Positions 7,196 through 37,690 of a stretch of DNA of 64,000 bases are shown one piece after another; the stretch's first letter is position 1; every line of letters starts with the position of its first letter. The notes under the pieces were generated by a model. That model had not been told where the DNA came from. It did no database searches and saw only the letters and a program-made list of their open reading frames with translations. Origin of the DNA: an uncultured Candidatus Saccharibacteria bacterium. Lineage in GTDB: Bacteria > Patescibacteriota > Minisyncoccia > Phycocordibacterales > DATDWN01. The DNA is taken from NCBI GenBank assembly GCA_964426735.1, contig CAYRRP010000001.1, positions 75,923-139,922 on the forward strand. Reading direction: 5' to 3'. The position numbers were made by a program, and so were the translations under genes.

Positions 7196-7678
7196 ATGCA
7201 AATAAAATCACAATTCACTGATAATGGGAATATAGCACAAGTGGTATATGAGGATTGTGACTCTTTTAACCATCTTTTATCAAAAAAAGTGACACAAGTA
7301 TACGCTATCTGTTTCCTAGATGACAAAATGCTAGTTGTTCACAATAAACATGCATGGGGTTTAGTTGGTGGTGGTCTTGAACCAAACGAAACATATGAAG
7401 AATGTTTGAAAAGAGAAATAAAAGAAGAATCAAATATGAGAGTTCTTTCTTTTGCACCTGTAGGTGCCCAAGAAGTTCAATTTGATGGCAAAATAATCTA
7501 CCAACTTCGTTATGCTTGCATCATTCATCCATATGGTGATTTTGTCTCTGACCCAGACGGAGATGTATCTGAAATTAAACTAATTGATTCAAAAGATTAT
7601 AAAGAATATTTTGACTGGGGTGAAATTGGAGAAAGAATCATAGAAAGAGCACTCGAACTTAAGAATAAATTAGCTTAA
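7196..7678 (+). CDS. NUDIX hydrolase (paralog 1)
   Basis: Nudix box GGGLEPNETYEECLKREIKEESN. Shares the C-terminal block PYGDFVSDPDGDxSEIKLID with the ORFs at 7686 and 11897. Confidence 0.8.
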   Translation: MQIKSQFTDNGNIAQVVYEDCDSFNHLLSKKVTQVYAICFLDDKMLVVHNKHAWGLVGGGLEPNETYEECLKREIKEESNMRVLSFAPVGAQEVQFDGKIIYQLRYACIIHPYGDFVSDPDGDVSEIKLIDSKDYKEYFDWGEIGERIIERALELKNKLA

Positions 7679-7685
7679 CAAAATC

Positions 7686-8180
7686 ATGGAAATAAAATCA
7701 CAATTTAAATCACGTAATGGAGAAATGGTTGATTACGTGTTCAGAGAAGGATTTGATCCGATGGGGGGATTAGATGGAAAAGTTCTGCAGGCTGTCCATG
7801 GTTTTTGTTTTTATGGTGACAAATTGGTAGTAGTATACGCAAATGATAAGGGGTATTGGACATTTCCAGGCGGTAGTATAGAACCCGGAGAAACATGGCA
7901 AGAAGCTACTACCCGAGAGATAAAAGAAGAATCAAATATGAAAGTGTTACATCAGGAATTGATTGGATATATCGATGTATATGAAAAAGACCGCACTATT
8001 CGACAAACCAGATCGTTTTGTATAGTTGAACCATACGGTGATTTCGTTTCTGATCCGGATGGAGATATTTCAGAAATAAAGTTGATTGACCCAAAAGACT
8101 ACGGACAGTATGTAAAATGGGGAGAAATTGGTGATCACATTGTGAAGCGAGCGATGGAAATGTTTGGAAAATATAAATAA
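7686..8180 (+). CDS. NUDIX hydrolase (paralog 2)
   Basis: Nudix box PGGSIEPGETWQEATTREIKEESN. About 50% identical to the neighbouring paralogs. Confidence 0.8.
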   Translation: MEIKSQFKSRNGEMVDYVFREGFDPMGGLDGKVLQAVHGFCFYGDKLVVVYANDKGYWTFPGGSIEPGETWQEATTREIKEESNMKVLHQELIGYIDVYEKDRTIRQTRSFCIVEPYGDFVSDPDGDISEIKLIDPKDYGQYVKWGEIGDHIVKRAMEMFGKYK

Positions 8181-11896: not shown

Positions 11897-12385
11897 ATGC
11901 AAATCGTATCAACTATCACTAATAAACAAGGAGAGACTTTTAAATCTATCTATCATGAAGGTGAAAATCCTAATGAAAATTTAGATGGAGTTATTTTGCC
12001 TGGCTCAGGCGGACATTGTTTTTGTGGTGACAAGTTGGTAATTGTAAAATCCGGTAATGATTGGGGTTTTCCAGGGGGTGGAATTGAAAAAGGAGAGACA
12101 TGGCAGGATGCTGTCGCACGGGAGGTAAAAGAAGAAGCAAATATGAAAGTGGTACACCACGAGCTTATTGGCTACCAAGACTTTTTTATGAAAAAACACA
12201 CATTGCGCCATGTGCACTCTCTCTGTATTGTCGAGCCGTATGGAGACTTTGAATCTGATCCAGATAACGATATTACGGAGATAAAACTCATTGATCCGAA
12301 AGATTTTAAAGAATACATCAACTGGGGTGAAGTTGGTGATTATCTAATGAAACAAGCTTTGGAAATGAAAGATTTGATAAAATGA
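11897..12385 (+). CDS. NUDIX hydrolase (paralog 3)
   Basis: Nudix box PGGGIEKGETWQDAVAREVKEEAN. C-terminal block PYGDFESDPDNDITEIKLIDPKDF is shared with the 7196 and 7686 paralogs. Confidence 0.8.
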   Translation: MQIVSTITNKQGETFKSIYHEGENPNENLDGVILPGSGGHCFCGDKLVIVKSGNDWGFPGGGIEKGETWQDAVAREVKEEANMKVVHHELIGYQDFFMKKHTLRHVHSLCIVEPYGDFESDPDNDITEIKLIDPKDFKEYINWGEVGDYLMKQALEMKDLIK

Positions 12386-29337: not shown

Positions 29338-29383
29338 TTAGTGTAACCCTCTATATTGGCAAATTTAGTTGTTGAACTATAGA

Positions 29384-29416
29384 AAACAAACTCTCGGAAA
29401 TGAGAGTTTGTTTTCT
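29384..29416. terminator. bidirectional rho-independent terminator
   Basis: AAACAAACTCTCGGAAATGAGAGTTTGTTT, flanked by an A-run upstream and a T-run downstream. Confidence 0.7.
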
Positions 29417-29421
29417 ACCTA

Positions 29422-29694
29422 CTATAATCCATGATGCTCCTTTTCTCTGATTTTCTCTATTGCATCAAACGCTTCCTTTTCTTCTTTCACTTTATTTTCT
29501 TCCTCCATTCTTCGATGTTTTCGTTCTTCCTTATGAGCAAGAGGCTCATGGCGTTTTTTTATGCGAGTATGACCATGCTTTTCTCCCGAATGTTTGTGGT
29601 GTGTAAAAAAATTATATAGAGTAAATTTTTTTGTAATTGTATCAATTATTTCCATATACCGATATAACTCTAACGCAATAATGTGTGTATACAT
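29422..29694 (-). CDS. His/Lys-rich small hypothetical protein
   Basis: 90-aa ORF, highly charged and His-rich (HHKHSGEKHGH...). Terminator directly downstream. Start uncertain. Confidence 0.35.
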   Translation of the reverse strand: MYTHIIALELYRYMEIIDTITKKFTLYNFFTHHKHSGEKHGHTRIKKRHEPLAHKEERKHRRMEEENKVKEEKEAFDAIEKIREKEHHGL

Positions 29695-30735: not shown

Positions 30736-30756
30736 TACATAGGGGTACCCTATGTA
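30736..30756. repeat. 21-nt near-palindrome TACATAGGGGTACCCTATGTA (copy 1)
   Basis: Sits immediately after the Gmad2 stop codon. One of three copies in this window. Confidence 0.8.
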
Positions 30757-30771
30757 CCAATAAAACAATCA

Positions 30772-31368
30772 ATGAATAACAAGAAAGTTTCTTTTACTGT
30801 TTCAGTATTCCTTGTATTATTTCTGTTACTCTCAAAATACATAGGGTACCCCTATGTAAAAGAGATGCGATCTCAAGTGTCAGCTATAGTACAGGCTCAA
30901 GTTGAGGCAGAGAATGTTTCAACAACAACTCCTGTATATCCCATAAAGACTGAAGATTTGTATGTTGTCTCACGTGTAGTGGATGGAGATACGATTGAAG
31001 TGATTCGCGATAACGTGAAGGAAAAAGTACGCTTGATTGGTGTTAATACTCCAGAGACTGTGGATCCACGAAAAAAAGTGGAGTGTTTTGGAAAAGAAGC
31101 CTCTGCTCATGCGAAAGAAATATTACTTGGTCAAAAAGTGAAACTTGTGTCTGATGATACTCAAACAAAATACGATAAGTACGGTAGACTTTTGGCGTAT
31201 GTATACACAGACGATGGGCTATTTATAAACAAACACATGATCAGTGAGGGGTATGCGTATGAGTATACCTACAGAGTGCCGTATCTTTTTCAAAATGAAT
31301 TTAAAGAAGCTCAAGTAAAAGCTCAAACTCAAGGGAAGGGTTTGTGGAGAGCGGGAATGTGTGAGTAA
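30772..31368 (+). CDS. secreted/membrane-anchored thermonuclease (SNase-like)
   Basis: N-terminal signal/TM segment. VVDGDTIEV ... RLIGVNTPET ... matches the staphylococcal nuclease catalytic core. Palindrome copy 2 lies inside its N-terminal coding region (YIGYPYV). Confidence 0.8.
   Translation: MNNKKVSFTVSVFLVLFLLLSKYIGYPYVKEMRSQVSAIVQAQVEAENVSTTTPVYPIKTEDLYVVSRVVDGDTIEVIRDNVKEKVRLIGVNTPETVDPRKKVECFGKEASAHAKEILLGQKVKLVSDDTQTKYDKYGRLLAYVYTDDGLFINKHMISEGYAYEYTYRVPYLFQNEFKEAQVKAQTQGKGLWRAGMCE
30838..30858. repeat. 21-nt near-palindrome (copy 2, inverted orientation of copy 1)
   Basis: TACATAGGGTACCCCTATGTA, the reverse complement of copies 1 and 3. Embedded in nuclease codons 23-29. Confidence 0.8.
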
Positions 31369-31394
31369 AACTGAGTGATGCAAGGTGATTGAAC

Positions 31395-31445
31395 TATTAC
31401 GGTACTATTGACAGATAGTAAAATAATAGTACGCTACTATAGTAC
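31395..31445 (+). promoter_or_regulatory. operator-like inverted repeats upstream of the 31482 gene
   Basis: TACTAT-N6-ATAGTA followed by ATAGTA-CGC-TACTAT (GGTACTATTGACAGATAGTAAAATAATAGTACGCTACTATAGTACT). Downstream gene uses a GTG start with a GGAG RBS. Confidence 0.45.
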
Positions 31446-31481
31446 TGATCTTTTTAATTCAAAAAGCCGAGGAGAATGTAA

Positions 31482-32138
31482 GTGCTAAAATTAACCTGGA
31501 AAGATGTTCCGAACTTTGCGTTCAAGATTCATGTTCAATTGTTTGTCCGTAAGGCGACGTATGAACATGGGAGTCTCAAGAAACTGGCGACGGATATTTC
31601 TAATCGCTACTTGAAGGGGAAAGACTTCGAGTTGATGGTGCAAACCTATCTCGATATCTGCTGGACGATTGACGGCATCAAGACAAAAACCATTGGCACG
31701 GCAGCACCAATTACTCGAAGTAATACACTCATGCAAGCAATTGCAATGGTGTATATGAACGAGAACCCTGTTACTATTGAGCAGTGTGATCAGATCAACC
31801 GATTCGCAGAGAAATGTAAAAACAGCTCAGTGAGTATTCATAATTGGTTTTTCCCCAAGGTCTACACTCTCTGGATGTATGCAAGTTATGCGAGTCAGAT
31901 CAATGATTTTGCGCGCAATCTCGTTGTTGATCCTCAAATAGACGAATCAACGCTCGCATTCCTTTACGAATCTATGAAAGGTGTTGGGGCAGAGATCAAC
32001 GAAATAGTTACTGAACTGTCAATGCTTCGGAAATATGGTGTGAAATCTTCATTCTTTCAGGATGGGATGTTGCATGGTCCGGATGAGGCATGGGTCTTTA
32101 CTGATTTTCATGAACTCATTCCTCAAATTTCTGAATGA
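31482..32138 (+). CDS. hypothetical protein (218 aa), GC-elevated cassette gene 1
   Basis: GTG start with a GGAG RBS at -11. About 42-48% GC against about 30-38% for the surrounding genes. No recognisable motifs. Confidence 0.5.
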   Translation: MLKLTWKDVPNFAFKIHVQLFVRKATYEHGSLKKLATDISNRYLKGKDFELMVQTYLDICWTIDGIKTKTIGTAAPITRSNTLMQAIAMVYMNENPVTIEQCDQINRFAEKCKNSSVSIHNWFFPKVYTLWMYASYASQINDFARNLVVDPQIDESTLAFLYESMKGVGAEINEIVTELSMLRKYGVKSSFFQDGMLHGPDEAWVFTDFHELIPQISE

Positions 32139-32147
32139 CGTCAGTTT

Positions 32148-32840
32148 ATGCCCTCAATTCCACTTGCGGTCGTGAGCCTTTCTAACAAGAGCGATCTCAC
32201 TGAGATTGGTTTTACCACCAAGCTTCATGAGAGTGGTATAGGAAAAATGTCCGGCGCCGGTTCACTATTTACAACCCGCGGATTCATGCATATCGATAGT
32301 AAAGGTGAACTTGACACTTCACCCGGTCTCGGCCTTATGCCTGTTCGAGAAATTTTCGAAAGGCATAACAAGGTTGCATTTTATGAGACCTTACGTTTCG
32401 TGCATGCCATTCGTCTTTACGATTTAGTTGTACCTATAACCACGGTCTCACAGATGCCTCAACCCCTCGTTCCTAAAGGTATTCTCGATCGGCTAAAAGG
32501 TGTCTTGAACAAGAAGCATCTTTTGCAGCTTGACCTTATCATTCCGCGTGTGCGCACTCTCGAGAACGTCGATCAGCTCATTCGTGAGTTGGAAGACGAG
32601 ATCGAGAAAGCAGATACGGAAACCATGGTACGCACGAAACGCGAACTACGACGTCACGAAGTGATCTACCATGTTCGTAGACTTCCCAAAGGTAAGCATC
32701 CAACTGCAGAAGCGCGAGCGCGTGCAGCTGAGTACAATATCGTACTTGCAGATGACGAAACCTTTGTGAAGCCTCACGAGCGTGGTGAAGGTAGTCTTGT
32801 AAAAACACTTCATCAGGCAGTGGTACGCCAGGGTAAGTAG
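32148..32840 (+). CDS. hypothetical protein (230 aa), GC-elevated cassette gene 2
   Basis: Starts 9 nt after gene 1, so an operon is likely. About 48% GC. Charged C-terminal half. No recognisable motifs. Confidence 0.5.
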   Translation: MPSIPLAVVSLSNKSDLTEIGFTTKLHESGIGKMSGAGSLFTTRGFMHIDSKGELDTSPGLGLMPVREIFERHNKVAFYETLRFVHAIRLYDLVVPITTVSQMPQPLVPKGILDRLKGVLNKKHLLQLDLIIPRVRTLENVDQLIRELEDEIEKADTETMVRTKRELRRHEVIYHVRRLPKGKHPTAEARARAAEYNIVLADDETFVKPHERGEGSLVKTLHQAVVRQGK

Positions 32841-32856
32841 CTGTATTTTCATAGGT

Positions 32857-32886
32857 AGGCCCCGCAAAACATCGCGGGGCTTTTCT
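32857..32886 (+). terminator. rho-independent terminator
   Basis: GCCCCGCAAAACATCGCGGGGC followed by TTTTCTG. Confidence 0.75.
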
Positions 32887-32892
32887 GTATAC

Positions 32893-32912
32893 TACATAGG
32901 GGTACCCTATGT
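32893..32912. repeat. 21-nt near-palindrome (copy 3, same orientation as copy 1)
   Basis: ACTACATAGGGGTACCCTATGT lying between two convergent terminators. Confidence 0.8.
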
Positions 32913-32915
32913 GTT

Positions 32916-32958
32916 ATTAAAAAGAAAGCCACCCGAGAAGCAGGGCGCTTTCGGGTGG
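32916..32958 (-). terminator. rho-independent terminator (minus strand)
   Basis: CCACCCGAGAAGCAGGGCGCTTTCGGGTGG with a T-run on the minus strand. Confidence 0.65.
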
Positions 32959-33542: not shown

Positions 33543-34817
33543 ATGTATTCAGAAAGACCTCAATCAAGAGGAAGTAATTTTTCACGACCATCTGCAGGTG
33601 GATATCGAGGAGCGCGACCAAGTTTCGGCTCACGTCCATCTTTTGGTTCTCGTGGAGGTTCACGATTTGCACCACGTCGCCAAGCAGGCAGACGAGGACA
33701 GTCAACTTTCAATGATATTTCTCGTTTCGTAAATAAAGCAACAAAAGCTGAAGAAGTGGAGGTATTCGTACCAAAGCATGCTTTTAGTGATTTTGCGATT
33801 CACGAAGCGCTTAAAGCGGTTATTCTCAAAAAAGGATATACGACTCCAACTCCGATCCAGGATACGTCAATTCCTCACATTTTAGCCGGTCTAGATGTGG
33901 TGGGTATTGCAAACACCGGTACCGGAAAGACAGCTTCATTCCTTATCCCTCTCATTCACAAAGTGATGATTGGTATTATGGCAAAGCGCAATGAGCAGGT
34001 GCTTATCGTCGCTCCGACACGTGAACTCGCAATTCAAATTGATGCTGAATTTAAAAAATTCACTGATGGTTTAAATTTGTATTCAGTGTGTGTAGTTGGT
34101 GGTGCTCCAATCAACAAACAGATCCGCGAACTCCGCTCTCATAATGATTTTATCATCGGGACTCCAGGACGTATCAAAGATTTGATGGAGCAGGGATATA
34201 TTAATCTTTCAAAATTTAACACAATCGTACTCGATGAAGCTGACCGAATGCTTGATATGGGATTTGTGGGTGATATGCGCTTTATGATGGCTAAGATGCC
34301 ACAAGTGCGACACACACTTTTCTTCTCAGCGACTCTGTCAAAAGAAATCGAACAGTTGATTGGGGAGTTTCTCAACAATCCAGTGCGAGTATCTGTAAAG
34401 ACACGAGATACGTCAAAAAATATTGACCAAGACGTGGTACGAACAGGTGGAAAGGATAAGCTCGATGTACTTCACGATATTTTGAATCAGCCAGAATGTG
34501 ACAAAGTCATTATTTTCGGACGAACAAAACATGGAGTAGAAAGACTTTCTGAAATGCTCGCAAAACGAGGTTTTAAAGCAGATGCGATCCATGGTGACAA
34601 AAATCACACTGGACGACAGCGAGCGTTGACCAAGTTTAAAGAAAACCAGGTGCAGATTCTTGTGGCAACAGATGTTGCTGCTCGAGGACTCGACATTCCA
34701 AACGTTTCTCATGTGATCAATTACGATCTTCCGTCAACGTACGAAGACTATGTTCACAGAATCGGACGAACCGGCCGCGCAGGGAAACCAGGAAAGGCCC
34801 TTACGTTTATCGACTAG
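33543..34817 (+). CDS. DEAD-box ATP-dependent RNA helicase with N-terminal RG/S-rich tail
   Basis: Q-motif, GTGKTASFLIP (motif I), DEAD, SAT, HRIGRTGRAG (motif VI). The N-terminal 60 aa is Arg/Gly/Ser-rich. Confidence 0.9.
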   Translation: MYSERPQSRGSNFSRPSAGGYRGARPSFGSRPSFGSRGGSRFAPRRQAGRRGQSTFNDISRFVNKATKAEEVEVFVPKHAFSDFAIHEALKAVILKKGYTTPTPIQDTSIPHILAGLDVVGIANTGTGKTASFLIPLIHKVMIGIMAKRNEQVLIVAPTRELAIQIDAEFKKFTDGLNLYSVCVVGGAPINKQIRELRSHNDFIIGTPGRIKDLMEQGYINLSKFNTIVLDEADRMLDMGFVGDMRFMMAKMPQVRHTLFFSATLSKEIEQLIGEFLNNPVRVSVKTRDTSKNIDQDVVRTGGKDKLDVLHDILNQPECDKVIIFGRTKHGVERLSEMLAKRGFKADAIHGDKNHTGRQRALTKFKENQVQILVATDVAARGLDIPNVSHVINYDLPSTYEDYVHRIGRTGRAGKPGKALTFID

Positions 34818-34825
34818 TAAAACTT

Positions 34826-34930
34826 CCACATTTGGCAAATTTCTTTGTCGAGCGTCGGTAAAATAATTCTCAACGTACGTTAGTACGTTTCCAATTATTT
34901 TCCTAGCTCTTCGCGAACTTTGCTCAAATC
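34826..34930 (+). repeat. ~105-nt intergenic repeat, copy A
   Basis: TTGGCAAATTTCTTTGTCGAGCGTCGGTAAAATAATTCTCAACGTACGTTAGTACGTTTCCAATTATTTTCCTAGCTCTTCGCGAACTTTGCTCAA. Internally palindromic (GAAAATAATT...AATTATTTTC). Confidence 0.75.
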
Positions 34931-34952
34931 TGAAAGTTTTAGGGTTACAACA

Positions 34953-34978
34953 AAAAACCGCCAGGGCGGTTTTTTGCT
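34953..34978 (+). terminator. rho-independent terminator
   Basis: AAAAAACCGCCAGGGCGGTTTTTTGC. Confidence 0.8.
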
Positions 34979-35027
34979 TGGTATAGATTTCCCAGACATC
35001 ATTTATAACTTTTGCTATACTTATTTC

Positions 35028-36206
35028 ATGGAAGGAGCACCAACATCACATTCGGAACGAATATCTGATCGATCTGAAAAGTATCGGGAAATTAGAGAAA
35101 GAATGCGAGAAACTGTCCCTGATGGCGCAATGATATTTGGCGAAGAGGCTCTTGCTGATATAGATATAAATCGAAAAATAGTTAAAGATATAGATGATGA
35201 TCTTGCTGAAGAAACGAATGAAGAGAAAAAAGAAAAATTACTTGACCATAAAATCTTTTTTGAAGGCTGCTGTAAAAAGAGACTCTCGGAGCTTAAAACT
35301 GATATAGAAGATCGGGCCGCTATCGATGCACTACCTTTTTTTGAAACGATATCAACCTCTCCGCATATTGAAAAGTTAGTCAAAGATGAATTGCCGTTGA
35401 TTAAAAAATTGAGCAAGTATGATGCAATTACGCTCTTTGTGTGTACAGTGAATAAAGATATTCCAGATCAATTATTTGAAGAGATGGTGCGGACATATGT
35501 AAACTTTTGGGAGAAAAAGCAGGAAGAATTTCATGAAAAGGCACCGTACATGTTAGCTGAATTTAAAGAAAAAACACTGCAGGCTATAAAAGAAAATAAA
35601 CTACCTATTACTCAAGAGTTATTAGAAGAAAGAATGGATGATACCAGAATCTATTTAGCAGATGCAATGTCTATAGGAGATTGTACGAATGGAGATTATA
35701 GTGTTAAAGAAGGTGTGGTGAGAGTTGCTTATAGAGATGATGAAGAAGCCCAGGAGAAAACTGTCTTTCATGAAATGGTGCACGCACTTTCAGGGCGAAC
35801 AGTAAGACTCAGGAGCGGAGACCTAGATCATCAGCGGAATGGTTTAGTTTTTTGGGTTTATAACAGCAAAGGTAATAAAAGCGGTAAACAATTCAGGTGG
35901 CTAAATGAAGCTGTAACTGAAGAAATTACCATTGAACTTTTGGGAATAGAACCTGAAGATGCTGCATATCCTCGAGAACGAAGGTATCTTCAGGAACTCT
36001 ACAATCAAGGTGTCTCTAAAGAATTGGTTTATGGAGCTTATTTTGAAAATTATGATCCTGATTCTCAAGAAAAAGTTCCTAAATGGAAGGAATTAGTTCG
36101 TCTTATTAAGGATACACATCCAGAAATACCTGATGATAGGGGTGGTGTGGAATACATAAAAAAAGTAGAAGAGGAAATTAAACGAAGGAAAGGTGGTTCT
36201 AACTGA
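35028..36206 (+). CDS. HExxH-motif hypothetical protein (putative metallopeptidase-like)
   Basis: TATACT-N6-ATG leaderless arrangement at 35016-35030. Motif VFHEMVHALSGR; acidic N-terminal third. About 393 aa. Confidence 0.5.
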   Translation: MEGAPTSHSERISDRSEKYREIRERMRETVPDGAMIFGEEALADIDINRKIVKDIDDDLAEETNEEKKEKLLDHKIFFEGCCKKRLSELKTDIEDRAAIDALPFFETISTSPHIEKLVKDELPLIKKLSKYDAITLFVCTVNKDIPDQLFEEMVRTYVNFWEKKQEEFHEKAPYMLAEFKEKTLQAIKENKLPITQELLEERMDDTRIYLADAMSIGDCTNGDYSVKEGVVRVAYRDDEEAQEKTVFHEMVHALSGRTVRLRSGDLDHQRNGLVFWVYNSKGNKSGKQFRWLNEAVTEEITIELLGIEPEDAAYPRERRYLQELYNQGVSKELVYGAYFENYDPDSQEKVPKWKELVRLIKDTHPEIPDDRGGVEYIKKVEEEIKRRKGGSN

Positions 36207-36244
36207 TCCTATTTCAAAAGTACGTTTTGTGGGATAATAGATAT

Positions 36245-36937
36245 ATGCAAAAAATATTAATTGGGTTTTGTTTTGGGTTGCTTTTGGTGCTTGGGGGTGT
36301 TTTGTATTTTCGTGCGGACAAGCTTCAGGTAGCAGAACTCACTACAAATACTATTGAGACAGATTTCTATACTATAAAAGTTACCCAACCGAAAAACGCA
36401 GAAAAGGATTTTCCTGAGATTTTTGCTGTAACAAAAAATGCGATTACAACATTTGAAAAACAATATGGAAACTTGAGCCCTGAAGATATCGAAACTCTTG
36501 GTCTCGGAGGAGATCGTATCTATGACTTACAAATAGATACCACAGTTGCTACTTCTTCGAAGACAGTTTCGTATATTTTGACGTTATACGAATTTACTGG
36601 AGGTGCGCACGGTAATACTGCAGTGAAGACATTTACGTATGATAAAGACAATACATTCATCGATGAAAAGAAATTGTTTGGAGAAAATAACTGGCGACCA
36701 GTGGTGTCCGATATTACCTATGCGTATTTGAAAGAAAAATTAAAAGAAAACACAACCGATGAAGCTCTCAGAGAGGGGACAAAACCTGAGGGAGAAAATC
36801 TATCCACCTGGTATCTCAAAGGTGATGATGTGATCTTTATATTCGGGCAATATCAAATCGGCGCGTATGTGCTTGGTATTCAGGAGGTACCAATATCTCG
36901 TGAAAAATTGAGTGAAGTTTTATTAATTAACAACTAA
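36245..36937 (+). CDS. DUF3298/DUF4163 (RsiV-like) domain protein, membrane-anchored
   Basis: N-terminal TM helix and the LYEFTGGAHGNT signature of DUF3298. Confidence 0.55.
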   Translation: MQKILIGFCFGLLLVLGGVLYFRADKLQVAELTTNTIETDFYTIKVTQPKNAEKDFPEIFAVTKNAITTFEKQYGNLSPEDIETLGLGGDRIYDLQIDTTVATSSKTVSYILTLYEFTGGAHGNTAVKTFTYDKDNTFIDEKKLFGENNWRPVVSDITYAYLKEKLKENTTDEALREGTKPEGENLSTWYLKGDDVIFIFGQYQIGAYVLGIQEVPISREKLSEVLLINN

Positions 36938-36951
36938 AATAAAGAAGTTAC

Positions 36952-37058
36952 GCAATTGAGCAAAGTTCTAGGCAGGCTAGGAAAATAATTGTAGGCGTAC
37001 TCGTTGTACGATGGAAATTATTTTCAGTAGCCTAACAACGAAATTTGCCAAGTGCGGA
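36952..37058 (-). repeat. ~105-nt intergenic repeat, copy C (inverted relative to A and B)
   Basis: The reverse complement aligns to copy A at about 80% identity over about 105 nt (TTGGCAAATTTCgTTGT ... AAAATAATT ... CGTAC ... AGTACG ... CAATTATTTTCCTAGC ... GAACTTTGCTCAA). Confidence 0.75.
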
Positions 37059-37073
37059 AGTTCTAGAAAACAT

Positions 37074-37598
37074 ATGGAGAAAGCTGTATTTGGAGGGGGC
37101 TGTTTCTGGTGTGTGGAAGCTGTGTTTAAAATGCTCAAAGGTGTGAGTGAGGTGTATCCAGGATACGCCGGAGGTACGGTGCCGAATCCAACTTACGAAC
37201 AGGTATGCACGGGAGATACCGGACATGCTGAGGTGGTAGTGGTGGAGTATGATCCTTCAGTTATTAAATATACAGATTTAATGACGGTGTTTTTTGCAAG
37301 CCACAATCCGACCGAGAAAAACAGGTAGGGGGCAGATGTGGGGACTCAGTACCGCTCTGTGATTTTCTATACAACAGAACGGCAAAAAGAAGATGCCTTC
37401 GCGTACATTAAGGAAATAGAGAGTGTGGGTGGAGGTAAGCCAATAGTCACTGAAGTAGAGCCTTTGACCGAAGTATATAAAGCAGAGGATTACCATAAAG
37501 ATTATTTAGCAAATCATCCATCCGCACCGTATTGTCAGATTGTTATTGAACCAAAACTCGACAAAGTAAAAGAGCGATTTGCAAAACTAATAAAATAG
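37074..37598 (+). pseudogene. msrA: peptide methionine sulfoxide reductase MsrA interrupted by an in-frame TAG
   Basis: [12 protein letters not shown] catalytic-Cys motif. ...[25 protein letters not shown] continues in the same frame. The TAG (37326-37328) replaces the conserved Gln (CAG) of the NRQGNDVGTQYRS block. Confidence 0.7.
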
Positions 37599-37690
37599 GC
37601 GAACTTCTTTGTTGGACGTCGGCAATTTGATTGTCATCGTACATTAGTACGCCTCCAATCAAATTCCTTGTCCGCCTCGAATTTCATCCT
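37597..37690 (+). repeat. ~105-nt intergenic repeat, copy B
   Basis: TAGGCGAACTTCTTTGTTGGACGTCGGCAATTTGATTGTCATCGTACATTAGTACGCCTCCAATCAAATTCCTTGTCCGCCTCGAATTTCATC. About 70% identical to copy A without gaps. Confidence 0.7.

What the first reader, a model, noticed from the sequence alone, without database searches (positions are those of the whole stretch)
30736..32912. Three copies of a 21-nt near-palindrome bracket the nuclease gene and a foreign two-gene cassette
The 21-nt near-palindrome TACATAGGGGTACCCTATGTA (core GGTACC) occurs three times: at 30736-30756, at 30838-30858 in reverse-complement orientation, and at 32893-32912. Copies 1 and 2 form an inverted pair 100 bp apart straddling the start codon of the secreted thermonuclease. 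Copy 2 is read through as codons (YIGYPYV) in the nuclease signal/anchor region. Copy 3 lies 2 kb downstream, exactly between two convergent terminators, after the GC-elevated genes at 31482 and 32148. This arrangement is compatible with terminal inverted repeats of a small non-autonomous mobile cassette, recombination or operator sites for a sequence-specific DNA-binding protein, or a palindromic repeat family that tolerates being coding. Nothing else in the window explains it.
Basis: seen in the sequence. Interest (0 to 1): 0.7.

Follow-up and report, generated by a model that had tools for sequence, protein, structure and literature searches.

The report
REP palindromes of a Patescibacteria RAYT transposase
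The three 21-base palindromes are copies of a small repeated hairpin element (a REP) whose partner transposase gene sits next to the same sequence in other candidate-phyla-radiation (CPR) bacteria; they are not the ends of a mobile cassette, so this is a known kind of element in a group where I found no earlier description of it.

Summary
TACATAGGGGTACCCTATGTA occurs at 30736-56 (+), 30838-58 (-) and 32893-913 (+, last base G), with none expected by chance.

The same 19-mer occurs 27 times in 14 other CPR genomes, almost always between genes. In 4 of the 23 loci it lies within about 70 nt of the start of an IS200-like HUH/Tyr (Y1) transposase gene. That protein's best family match is 'REP-associated tyrosine transposase'. 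Its best structural match is the E. coli RAYT-REP complex, 4ER8.

Of 69 further homologues from metagenomes, 63 share a lineage-specific palindrome of the same build (arm-AGG-N5-CCT-arm) on both sides, against 3 of 63 controls. The motif is therefore a REP of a large CPR RAYT family. No RAYT lies in this window.

Related genomes reject the 'bracketing' reading:
- The nuclease is native and syntenic.
- Copy 2, which encodes YIGYPYV, is present in orthologues of 65-73% identity.
- Copy 1 is present in some relatives and cleanly absent in others.
- The 'two-gene cassette' is one foreign gene of about 450 aa, split by an in-frame TGA and carrying its own promoter and terminator. Only its right edge abuts copy 3.

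This is a known kind of element in a new host group. Oddities are low copy number and much better conservation than the flanks.

The parts
30736..30756 (+). REP copy 1. Exact 21-mer in the 37-nt spacer between the Gmad2-domain gene and the nuclease gene.
   Evidence: Present in relatives L110 (1 mismatch) and L028 (1 mismatch). Absent from L026, L112, L113 and L114, which are empty sites.
30838..30858 (-). REP copy 2. Exact 21-mer in the opposite orientation, read as codons 23-29 (YIGYPYV) of the secreted nuclease, just after its signal-anchor helix.
   Evidence: YIGYP[YS]V is present in orthologues P0003-P0005 and P0009, with YIGTPSV in P0002 and YIGHPSV in P0008. At the DNA level it is exact in L110, has 1 mismatch in L026, 3 in L028 and 4 in L112. 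REP columns are 92% identical between relatives, against 43-57% for the flanking codons.
32893..32913 (+). REP copy 3 (20 of 21; last base G), between two convergent terminator-like hairpins. It is the last feature at the right edge of a lineage-specific insertion.
   Evidence: In relatives L026 and L113 the nuclease stop is joined directly to the sequence that follows copy 3 here.
30736..30858 (+). Inverted REP pair with an 81-nt spacer that holds the nuclease start codon and signal peptide. As single-stranded RNA the two copies are predicted to pair into a 21-bp helix.
   Evidence: MFE -44.9 kcal/mol, z -6.2; relative L028, z -6.7. Whether the helix forms or matters is not shown.
30772..31368 (+). 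Context: native secreted staphylococcal-type nuclease gene. It is not part of any mobile unit.
   Evidence: Pfam SNase. Conserved synteny ABC-F / 168-aa gene / Gmad2 / SNase in L028, L113 and L114.
31371..32917 (+). Context: 1.55-kb lineage-specific insertion. It holds its own promoter region, one gene of about 450 aa split by an in-frame TGA at 32136-38 (ORFs 31482-32138 and 32148-32840), a terminator at 32857-82, then REP copy 3. TAAAA lies on both sides (31366-70 and 32918-22).
   Evidence: boundaries; fused homologues; the TGA aligns with Trp; homologues in unrelated, higher-G+C contexts, without a REP, with a similar TTGACA...TACGCT leader.

Best explanation
The 21-mer is a repetitive extragenic palindrome (REP). 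It is a short DNA hairpin recognised and spread by a REP-associated tyrosine transposase (RAYT), an HUH/Tyr single-strand DNA nuclease related to the IS200/IS605 TnpA.

**Shown here**
- The same sequence is scattered as solo copies through intergenic DNA of many Patescibacteria genomes.
- In several of those genomes it directly flanks a RAYT-like gene.
- Nearly every homologue of that gene is flanked on both sides by its own palindrome of the same build (arm-AGG-N5-CCT-arm). Arms and centre change with the protein lineage.

**Inferred from the E. coli RAYT and IS608 work (PMC3479197)**
- The protein binds the hairpin when the DNA is single-stranded, cuts beside it with its tyrosine, and now and then pastes a copy elsewhere.

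**The three copies in this window**
- They are solo products of that process, gained at different times.
- Copy 2 is old. It is shared by nuclease orthologues of 65-73% identity and is tolerated in frame in the linker after the signal anchor.
- Copy 1 is present in only part of that clade, through later gain or through loss.
- Copy 3 sits in the usual REP position between convergent genes, next to an unrelated insertion of a foreign gene.
- The transposase itself is not in this window.

**Not shown**
- Any effect on the host, such as a hairpin at the end of the Gmad2 message or pairing of copies 1 and 2 around the nuclease start.
For: **Spread of the motif**
- the 19-mer core occurs 27 times in 23 loci of 14 MAGs, all CPR. 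I estimate about 4 chance hits in 596 Gb.
- the full 21-mer is exact in most copies.
- the copies are intergenic and next to unrelated genes.

**Link to a transposase**
- the only recurring neighbour is a protein of about 220 aa. It lies within about 70 nt of the motif in L001, L008, L011 and L021; in L021 the motif is on both sides. A further frameshifted copy lies in L013.
- Pfam Y1_Tnp, 33-37 bits against a cut-off of 23.
- the best NCBIfam match is REP_Tyr_transpos (E 3e-12 to 6e-10).
- invariant YHxYNRG, CLMPNH[FI]H (the HUH motif) and Y..YIHLNP (the tyrosine).
- the AlphaFold model (pLDDT 79.6) matches 4ER8, the E. coli RAYT bound to a REP hairpin, best (E 1.4e-4), ahead of the IS608 and ISDra2 TnpA structures.
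- 6718 homologues. Those that carry an organism label are from CPR lineages, and one is named RayT by its source.

**Cognate palindromes**
- most of 80 metagenomic homologues carry a matching palindrome 30-60 nt upstream and 0-60 nt downstream.
- 63 of 69 loci share a 10-mer or longer between the two flanks, against 3 of 63 control window pairs.
- the closest relatives of the L021 protein keep the arms TACATAGG/CCTATGTA but have different centres. L116 has 8 copies in 8.6 kb.

**This locus**
- copy 1 is a discrete presence/absence difference in otherwise alignable spacers.
- Known REP behaviour (PMC3733652): inverted pairs, positions between convergent ORFs, and occasional copies inside genes.
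Against: - No RAYT gene lies in the 64-kb window. The rest of the 233,721-bp contig and genome could not be searched, so an active partner in this organism is unproven.
- Copy number is very low for a REP: 3 in 64 kb here and at most 4 exact copies per MAG.
- The family lacks the unpaired GTAG tag of classical REPs. Here CTAC and GTAG are part of the stem.
- The protein scores below NCBIfam's RAYT cut-off (39-47 bits against 80).
- Up- and downstream copies around the gene are in direct orientation in this subfamily but inverted in others. A small IS200-like insertion sequence whose ends also occur alone is therefore not excluded.
- No biochemical evidence of binding or cleavage exists for any member.
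Confidence: 0.85

Rival explanations
1. The copies are terminal inverted repeats of a small non-autonomous mobile cassette (MITE-like) that carries the nuclease and/or the genes at 31482-32840.
For: - Copies 1 and 2 are inverted, and copies 1 and 3 are direct and 2.16 kb apart.
- The segment 31371-32917 is truly an insertion and ends with copy 3.
- TAAAA lies on both sides of that insertion.
Against: - The nuclease is native and syntenic in relatives.
- Copies 1 and 2 occur in relatives that lack the insertion and copy 3.
- Copy 2 occurs without copy 1 in L025-L027.
- The left edge of the insertion has no repeat.
- Homologues of the inserted gene elsewhere have no such repeat.
- The same 21-mer sits alone at unrelated loci in 14 genomes.
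Confidence: 0.03
2. The palindromes are operators for a dimeric DNA-binding regulator, for instance the product of 31482/32148 or an autoregulator of the transposase gene. Two of them would frame the nuclease start.
For: - The site is a strictly conserved dyad, far better conserved than its flanks.
- Two sites frame a translation start.
- The motif lies 13-70 nt upstream of the RAYT start codon in four loci, where it could also act in autoregulation.
Against: - Copy 3, and many copies elsewhere, lie downstream of genes or between convergent genes.
- The 31482/32148 product is absent from all other motif-bearing loci.
- No regulator gene recurs next to the motif.
- Flanking palindromes change with the transposase lineage and lie on both sides of the gene. 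That is the REP-RAYT pattern, not an operator pattern.
Confidence: 0.04
3. The copies are core sites of a site-specific recombinase (Xer/dif-like, or an invertase). The reading would be 7-bp arms around an asymmetric 7-bp spacer, with copies 1 and 2 flipping the 81-nt start region of the nuclease as a phase switch, and copies 1 and 3 allowing excision.
For: - The asymmetric centre gives the site an orientation.
- Copies 1 and 2 are inverted, and copies 1 and 3 are direct.
Against: - No recombinase gene recurs next to the motif; the recurring neighbour is a Y1 HUH transposase instead.
- The window, L024 (the same organism as the window) and the two relatives with both copies (L028, L110) all show the same orientation of the 81-nt segment.
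- The flipped segment would contain no ATG.
- Solo copies dominate elsewhere.
Confidence: 0.03
4. An add-on to the REP reading rather than an alternative: the REP pair at the nuclease 5' end has been taken over by the host. The two copies would pair in the mRNA as a 21-bp helix around the start codon, or each would fold on its own, to limit translation or trigger RNase III cleavage. This would explain why both stay nearly unchanged.
For: - The predicted folds pair copy 1 with copy 2 (z about -6 to -7).
- In L028 both copies carry the complementary change (C>G in copy 1, G>C in copy 2), which keeps the inter-copy pair while breaking each local hairpin. The helix there also extends 14 bp inward.
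- REP columns are 92-94% identical, against 43-57% for neighbouring columns.
Against: - Any two inverted copies of a 21-mer will be predicted to pair.
- L110 has an uncompensated change in copy 1, and L028 also has two non-compensated changes in copy 2.
- L025-L027 keep copy 2 with no copy 1.
- The shared L028 change is equally explained by a lineage-specific REP centre (GGTAG), as seen in other lineages.
- Only three genomes carry both copies.
Confidence: 0.15

Closest known systems
REP elements and their RAYT (TnpA-REP) transposases, as in E. coli, Pseudomonas and Stenotrophomonas (PMC3479197, PMC3116915, PMC5581495, PMC3733652)
   Same: - A short hairpin-forming palindrome, scattered in intergenic DNA, often between convergent genes.
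- It sometimes occurs as inverted pairs and occasionally inside genes.
- The same sequence flanks an HUH/Tyr Y1 transposase gene.
- The palindrome changes together with the transposase lineage.
- The best structural match of the protein is the E. coli RAYT-REP complex, 4ER8.
   Different: - The hosts are Patescibacteria (CPR), with genomes I take to be very small (my own knowledge, not measured here).
- There are a few copies per genome rather than tens to hundreds.
- The palindrome is shorter and nearly perfect, with no unpaired GTAG or CGTC tag.
- The protein is about 217-225 aa, against 165 aa for 4ER8, and falls below NCBIfam's RAYT cut-off.
- Copies flanking the gene are direct in this subfamily.
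- The identical 21-mer persists at orthologous sites in genomes whose proteins are only 56-73% identical.
IS200/IS605 insertion sequences and their gene-less derivatives (PATEs)
   Same: - A Y1 HUH transposase of the same superfamily (Pfam PF01797).
- Hairpins close to both ends of the gene, in direct orientation in this subfamily.
- Single-strand 'peel and paste' chemistry is the likely mechanism.
   Different: - Most motif copies are lone 21-mers, with no second end and no gene within kilobases. What spreads is therefore the hairpin, not an insertion sequence.
- The predicted structure is closer to the RAYT than to the IS608, ISDra2 or IS200 TnpA.
REPINs (REP doublets mobilised as one unit; Bertels and Rainey 2011)
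   Same: Copies 1 and 2 are two REPs in inverted orientation, about 100 bp apart, that can fold into one long hairpin.
   Different: - The 81-nt spacer encodes the nuclease start and a signal peptide that is conserved in orthologues without REPs.
- Copy 1 is independently absent in a relative.
- The pair is therefore two separate copies, not one transposed doublet.
- True doublets of this family are tight head-to-head pairs (L115, L116).

Membership tests
REP (repetitive extragenic palindrome) | Short (about 20-40 nt) imperfect palindrome able to form a stem-loop | tested here: met
   9-bp stem with a 3-nt loop; DNA fold -6.5 kcal/mol.
REP (repetitive extragenic palindrome) | Repeated and dispersed, mainly in intergenic DNA next to unrelated genes | tested here: met
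   3 copies here, plus 27 copies in 23 loci of 14 MAGs, almost all intergenic. Copy number per genome is low (at most 4 exact copies).
REP (repetitive extragenic palindrome) | The same sequence flanks a cognate RAYT gene | tested here: met
   Met in L001, L008, L011 and L021, and for lineage-specific variants in 63 of 69 homologous loci. It could not be tested for the window's own genome; no RAYT lies within the 64 kb.
REP (repetitive extragenic palindrome) | Conserved unpaired GTAG (or CGTC) tag at one end (PMC3733652) | tested here: not met
   CTAC...GTAG occurs in about a third of copies, but as paired bases that extend the stem, not as a one-sided unpaired tag.
RAYT / TnpA-REP | HUH motif and catalytic tyrosine of the Y1 transposase fold | tested here: met
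   Invariant CLMPNH[FI]H and Y..YIHLNP in A2. Pfam PF01797 above its cut-off.
RAYT / TnpA-REP | Scores as RAYT with the curated NCBIfam equivalog model NF047646 | tested here: not met
   It is the best hit, but at 39-47 bits against a cut-off of 80. The protein is a distant relative, not an equivalog.
RAYT / TnpA-REP | Structure closest to the solved RAYT rather than to IS200/IS605 TnpA | tested here: met
   Foldseek top hit 4ER8: E 1.4e-4, TM 0.62 over the target. IS608, ISDra2 and IS200 TnpA follow at E 3e-3 to 5e-2.
RAYT / TnpA-REP | Single copy per genome, vertically inherited (PMC5581495) | not tested
   Whole genomes were not available to the tools.
RAYT / TnpA-REP | Binds and cleaves its REP as single-stranded DNA | not testable with these tools
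   Needs biochemistry.
REPIN (REP doublet moved as one unit) | Two inverted REPs plus spacer gained or lost together as one unit | tested here: not met
   The spacer encodes the conserved signal peptide. Copy 2 is present without copy 1 in L025-L027.
MITE / cassette with terminal inverted repeats | Repeats at both ends of the unit, and an empty site that lacks the whole unit | tested here: not met
   Relatives lack only 31371-32917. Its left end has no repeat. The nuclease with copies 1 and 2 stays in place.
Site-specific recombination or inversion sites | Recombinase gene linked to the sites; both orientations or excised forms observed | tested here: not met
   No recombinase recurs near the motif. 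One orientation only is seen in all the assemblies that carry both copies: the window, L024 (same organism), L028 and L110. Read-level heterogeneity could not be tested.

The most novel reading that the evidence does not exclude
In these tiny genomes the REPs are not just tolerated junk but are kept by selection or by an active homogenising process. The evidence is that an identical 21-mer persists at orthologous sites, including inside a coding sequence, across genomes whose proteins are only 56-73% identical.

At this locus the inverted pair around the start of the secreted nuclease may have become a structural switch, either an RNA helix or a single-strand DNA hairpin, that controls the gene. 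I expect (from general knowledge, not tested here) that such a secreted nuclease helps these bacteria scavenge nucleotides.
Probability: 0.15. Interest if true: 0.6.

Novelty: new member of a known kind. Interest (0 to 1): 0.38.

Why it matters
**Annotation.** It gives a simple identity to a puzzling repeat and removes a false lead: there is no mobile nuclease cassette here.

**A large unreported family.** Patescibacteria carry a large family of RAYT-like transposases (thousands of sequences in public data), each with its own flanking hairpin. I found no description of this in the searchable literature. The genomes of these bacteria are understood to be extremely reduced (general knowledge, not measured here), so the persistence of a transposase-repeat pair, and of repeat copies conserved far better than their surroundings, bears on an open question: are REP systems parasites, or useful parts of the host?

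**Practical uses.** The lineage-specific centre of the hairpin could serve as a marker when binning these organisms. Gene callers should also be aware that such repeats can be read through as codons.

Tried and rejected
- **Other copies in the window:** none, even degenerate ones.
- **Rfam:** nothing at gathering thresholds for the whole window, and only sub-threshold noise in 34.8-37.1 kb.
- **Viral contigs:** the motif is absent. The inserted gene has no viral relatives.
- **RAYT in the window:** none. The weak tblastn hit at 43.3 kb is tRNA-guanine transglycosylase.
- **Single-sequence PDB search with the RAYT:** only a spurious designed-repeat hit. The profile search gave only weak ISDra2 hits. 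The link to 4ER8 needed a structure model.
- **The inserted gene:** no match in Pfam, NCBIfam, PADLOC or PHROGs. The model of its C-terminal half has no PDB match. Its function remains unknown.
- **Neighbours shared with the motif loci:** tblastn of the window's neighbours against the motif loci found no shared cassette genes.
- **DNA-uptake sequence:** considered and rejected, because there are far too few copies per genome.
- **KpnI site (GGTACC):** treated as incidental.
- **In-frame insertion of copy 2:** a clean 7-codon insertion could not be shown. REP-free orthologues differ in length by only 1-3 codons in this variable linker.
- **Organism name:** no accession or name could be recovered for the source genome.
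Full report
**1. The observation**

The sequence is as described.
- TACATAGGGGTACCCTATGTA lies at 30736-30756 on the + strand and at 30838-30858 on the - strand.
- A third copy at 32893-32913 has one mismatch (last base G).
- Shuffled sequence gave no matches.
- Relaxed patterns and a scan for all perfect hairpins found no further copy, even a degenerate one, in the 64 kb.

Each copy has 9-bp arms and a 3-nt centre. Only the centre (GTA or TAC) gives it an orientation.
- Copy 1 begins 1 nt after the stop of a Gmad2-domain gene and ends 15 nt before the ATG of a staphylococcal-type nuclease.
- Copy 2 is codons 23-29 (YIGYPYV) of that nuclease, just after its signal-anchor helix.
- Copy 3 lies between two convergent terminator-like hairpins.

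**2. The motif outside the window**

An exact scan of one genome per species (596 Gb) with the 19-nt core found 27 copies in 23 loci from 14 MAGs.
- All 14 are candidate-phyla-radiation bacteria, labelled Lloydbacteria, Nomurabacteria, Zambryskibacteria and Saccharibacteria. I did not verify these labels.
- I estimate about 4 chance hits.
- The motif is absent from viral contigs.
- Most copies match the full 21-mer exactly. They are nearly always intergenic and close to the ends of unrelated genes.
- In 16 of 30 copies the stem continues outward for 2 or more further complementary bases. The added bases differ between loci, and about 2 such cases are expected by chance.

**3. The partner gene**

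I clustered all ORFs in the motif loci. The only neighbour that recurs in several genomes is a protein of about 220 aa.
- It lies within about 70 nt of the motif in L001, L008, L011 and L021. In L021 the motif is on both sides of it. A frameshifted copy lies in L013.
- It matches Pfam Y1_Tnp (IS200-like transposase) above the cut-off.
- Its best NCBIfam family is 'REP-associated tyrosine transposase', though below that model's cut-off.
- An alignment of 18 homologues has invariant YHxYNRG, CLMPNH[FI]H (the HUH motif) and Y..YIHLNP (the tyrosine).
- An AlphaFold model (pLDDT 79.6) matches 4ER8 best (E 1.4e-4). 4ER8 is the E. coli RAYT bound to a REP hairpin. The IS608, ISDra2 and IS200 transposases follow.
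- The family is large: 6718 database proteins at E <= 1e-5. The hits that carry an organism label are from CPR lineages, and one is named RayT by its source.

**4. Is flanking by a cognate palindrome general?**

A metagenome scan returned 80 homologous loci.
- Most carry a 19-31-nt palindrome 30-60 nt before the start and 0-60 nt after the stop.
- All follow one plan: arm, AGG, five central bases, CCT, arm. The window motif fits it: TACAT-AGG-GGTAC-CCT-ATGTA.
- Arms and centres differ between protein lineages. In many loci the centre is flipped between the two sides.
- In 63 of 69 loci with both flanks available, the two 130-nt flanks share a word of at least 10 nt. Only 3 of 63 control window pairs do.
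- The closest relatives of the L021 protein keep the arms TACATAGG/CCTATGTA but have other centres. L115 has GTCGC. L116 has TGAAA and 8 copies in 8.6 kb, several of them tight head-to-head doublets.

This is the REP-RAYT pattern described for Proteobacteria (PMC3116915, PMC3479197, PMC5581495, PMC3733652). The last of these papers also reports REPs as inverted pairs, between convergent ORFs and occasionally inside genes, which covers every feature seen here.

**5. This locus compared with relatives**

Nuclease orthologues of 65-73% identity were traced to their contigs. The upstream gene order ABC-F / 168-aa gene / Gmad2 / nuclease is conserved in L028, L113 and L114 (with MurB and Ddl further upstream in L028 and L113), so the nuclease is native.

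| Locus | Copy 1 | Copy 2 |
|---|---|---|
| Window | exact | exact |
| L110 | 1 mismatch | exact |
| L028 | 1 mismatch | 3 mismatches |
| L025-L027 | absent | 1 mismatch |
| L112 | absent | 4 mismatches |
| L113, L114 | absent | unrecognisable |

- Where copy 1 is absent, the spacers are otherwise alignable. In L026 the Gmad2 stop is followed by only 4 nt before the ATG.
- The REP columns are 92-94% identical between these genomes. Neighbouring columns are 43-57% identical.
- None of the relatives has copy 3.

**6. The 'cassette'**

In L026 and L113 the nuclease stop is followed at once by AAAAGAAAGCCACCCGAG..., the terminator of the convergent small membrane-protein gene. In the window that sequence begins only after copy 3.
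- The window therefore has a 1.55-kb insertion, 31371-32917, with TAAAA on both sides.
- Its two ORFs are in the same frame, separated by a single TGA.
- Most homologues are single proteins of 435-470 aa that cover both halves. The TGA aligns with Trp in the two closest.
- Homologues lie in unrelated contexts with higher G+C (L109, L117) and have no REP. L117 shares a similar TTGACA...TACGCT leader.
- The insertion is therefore one foreign gene with its own promoter and terminator, now carrying a nonsense codon. Its function is unknown: no family matches it, and the model of its C-terminal half has no structural match.
- Copy 3 is a native-type REP at the right edge of the insertion. I could not decide whether it was there first, arrived later, or marks a preferred entry point.
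- The interval between the nuclease and the convergent gene is variable in general. L028 and L110 hold other unrelated DNA there.

**7. How it most likely works**

Shown:
- A hairpin repeat is scattered as solo copies.
- It is physically linked, in several genomes, to an HUH/Tyr transposase whose relatives are almost always flanked by their own version of the hairpin.
- At least one copy (copy 1) differs by clean presence or absence between relatives.

Inferred from the E. coli RAYT and IS200/IS605 work:
- The protein recognises the folded hairpin on single-stranded DNA, cuts next to it and rarely copies it elsewhere.

Not shown:
- Any activity in this organism.
- Any host effect.

RNA folding pairs copy 1 with copy 2 as a 21-bp helix around the start codon. 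In L028 both copies carry a complementary change. However, L110 has an uncompensated change, L026 keeps copy 2 alone, and a lineage-specific centre explains the L028 change equally well. I give a taken-over regulatory role about 15%.

**8. Verdict**

The cassette, operator and recombination readings are not supported.
- This is a known kind of system (REP plus RAYT) in a host group for which I found no description.
- Unusual traits are few copies per genome, no unpaired GTAG tag, a longer protein, and striking conservation of copies at orthologous sites.
- Confidence in the REP-RAYT identification is about 0.85.

Noticed in passing
window 31482-32840 (TGA at 32136-32138): The two ORFs called a two-gene cassette are one reading frame broken by a single in-frame TGA. 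Homologues are single proteins of 435-470 aa with no known domain. The TGA aligns with Trp in the two closest homologues, so this is a TGG>TGA nonsense change or a read-through site. The copy in L109 is also broken, by a frameshift.
   Followed up: yes
window 34815-34940, 36945-37065 (opposite orientation), 37598-37668 and 29340-29440 (partial); also L113 5321-5435, L114 5175-5278 and 6547-6633: A second, unrelated repeat family. It is an intergenic element of about 120 nt that itself folds into one long hairpin (RNA MFE -38.6 kcal/mol, z -7.4). Copies flank the genes at 34920-36937, and the element is also present in related genomes. There is no Rfam match. It looks like a MITE or REPIN-type element.
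   Followed up: partly
window 31366-31370 and 32918-32922: TAAAA lies on both sides of the 1.55-kb insertion, where relatives have a single TAAAAAA. This could be a target duplication or microhomology at the joint.
   Followed up: partly
window 31398-31445: The leader of the inserted gene holds three TACTAT/ATAGTA dyads (for example ATAGTAcgcTACTAT) around a TTGACA...TACGCT promoter-like stretch. A similar stretch precedes the intact homologue in L117, so this may be the gene's own operator and promoter.
   Followed up: partly
23 motif loci L001-L023 (e.g. L013 72-110, L018 1367-1415, L021 2785-2825): In 16 of 30 copies the hairpin stem continues 2-14 bp beyond the conserved 21-mer, with locus-specific bases. 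A 25-mer, AACTACATAGGGGTACCCTATGTAGTT, recurs in several genomes. Either the mobile unit is slightly longer and variable, or copies prefer to land in the middle of existing palindromes.
   Followed up: partly
L116 1191-4720: A related genome has 8 copies of its own REP variant (TACATAGGTGAAACCTATGTA) in 8.6 kb, several of them overlapping head-to-head doublets. This includes copies around the L10/L12 ribosomal protein genes. The density is far higher than in the window's genome.
   Followed up: no
L028 6001-6669 (protein P0005, residues ~81-105): The nuclease orthologue in L028 carries a 25-residue Pro/Gly/Ala-rich insertion (PARPPESGAGGPARPPESTQLGAGG) inside the nuclease domain. All other orthologues lack it.
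   Followed up: no
L008 567-587: A 17-of-21 match to the motif (CCAATAGGGGTACCCTATGTT) lies inside the RAYT coding sequence itself in L008.
   Followed up: no
window 7367-7632, 7855-8134, 12060-12339: Three diverged direct repeats (66-76% identity) appear to encode a Nudix-box-like peptide (GG..E..E...REIKEE), read by eye from the repeat sequences. They look like three paralogous small hydrolase genes rather than a non-coding repeat.
   Followed up: no
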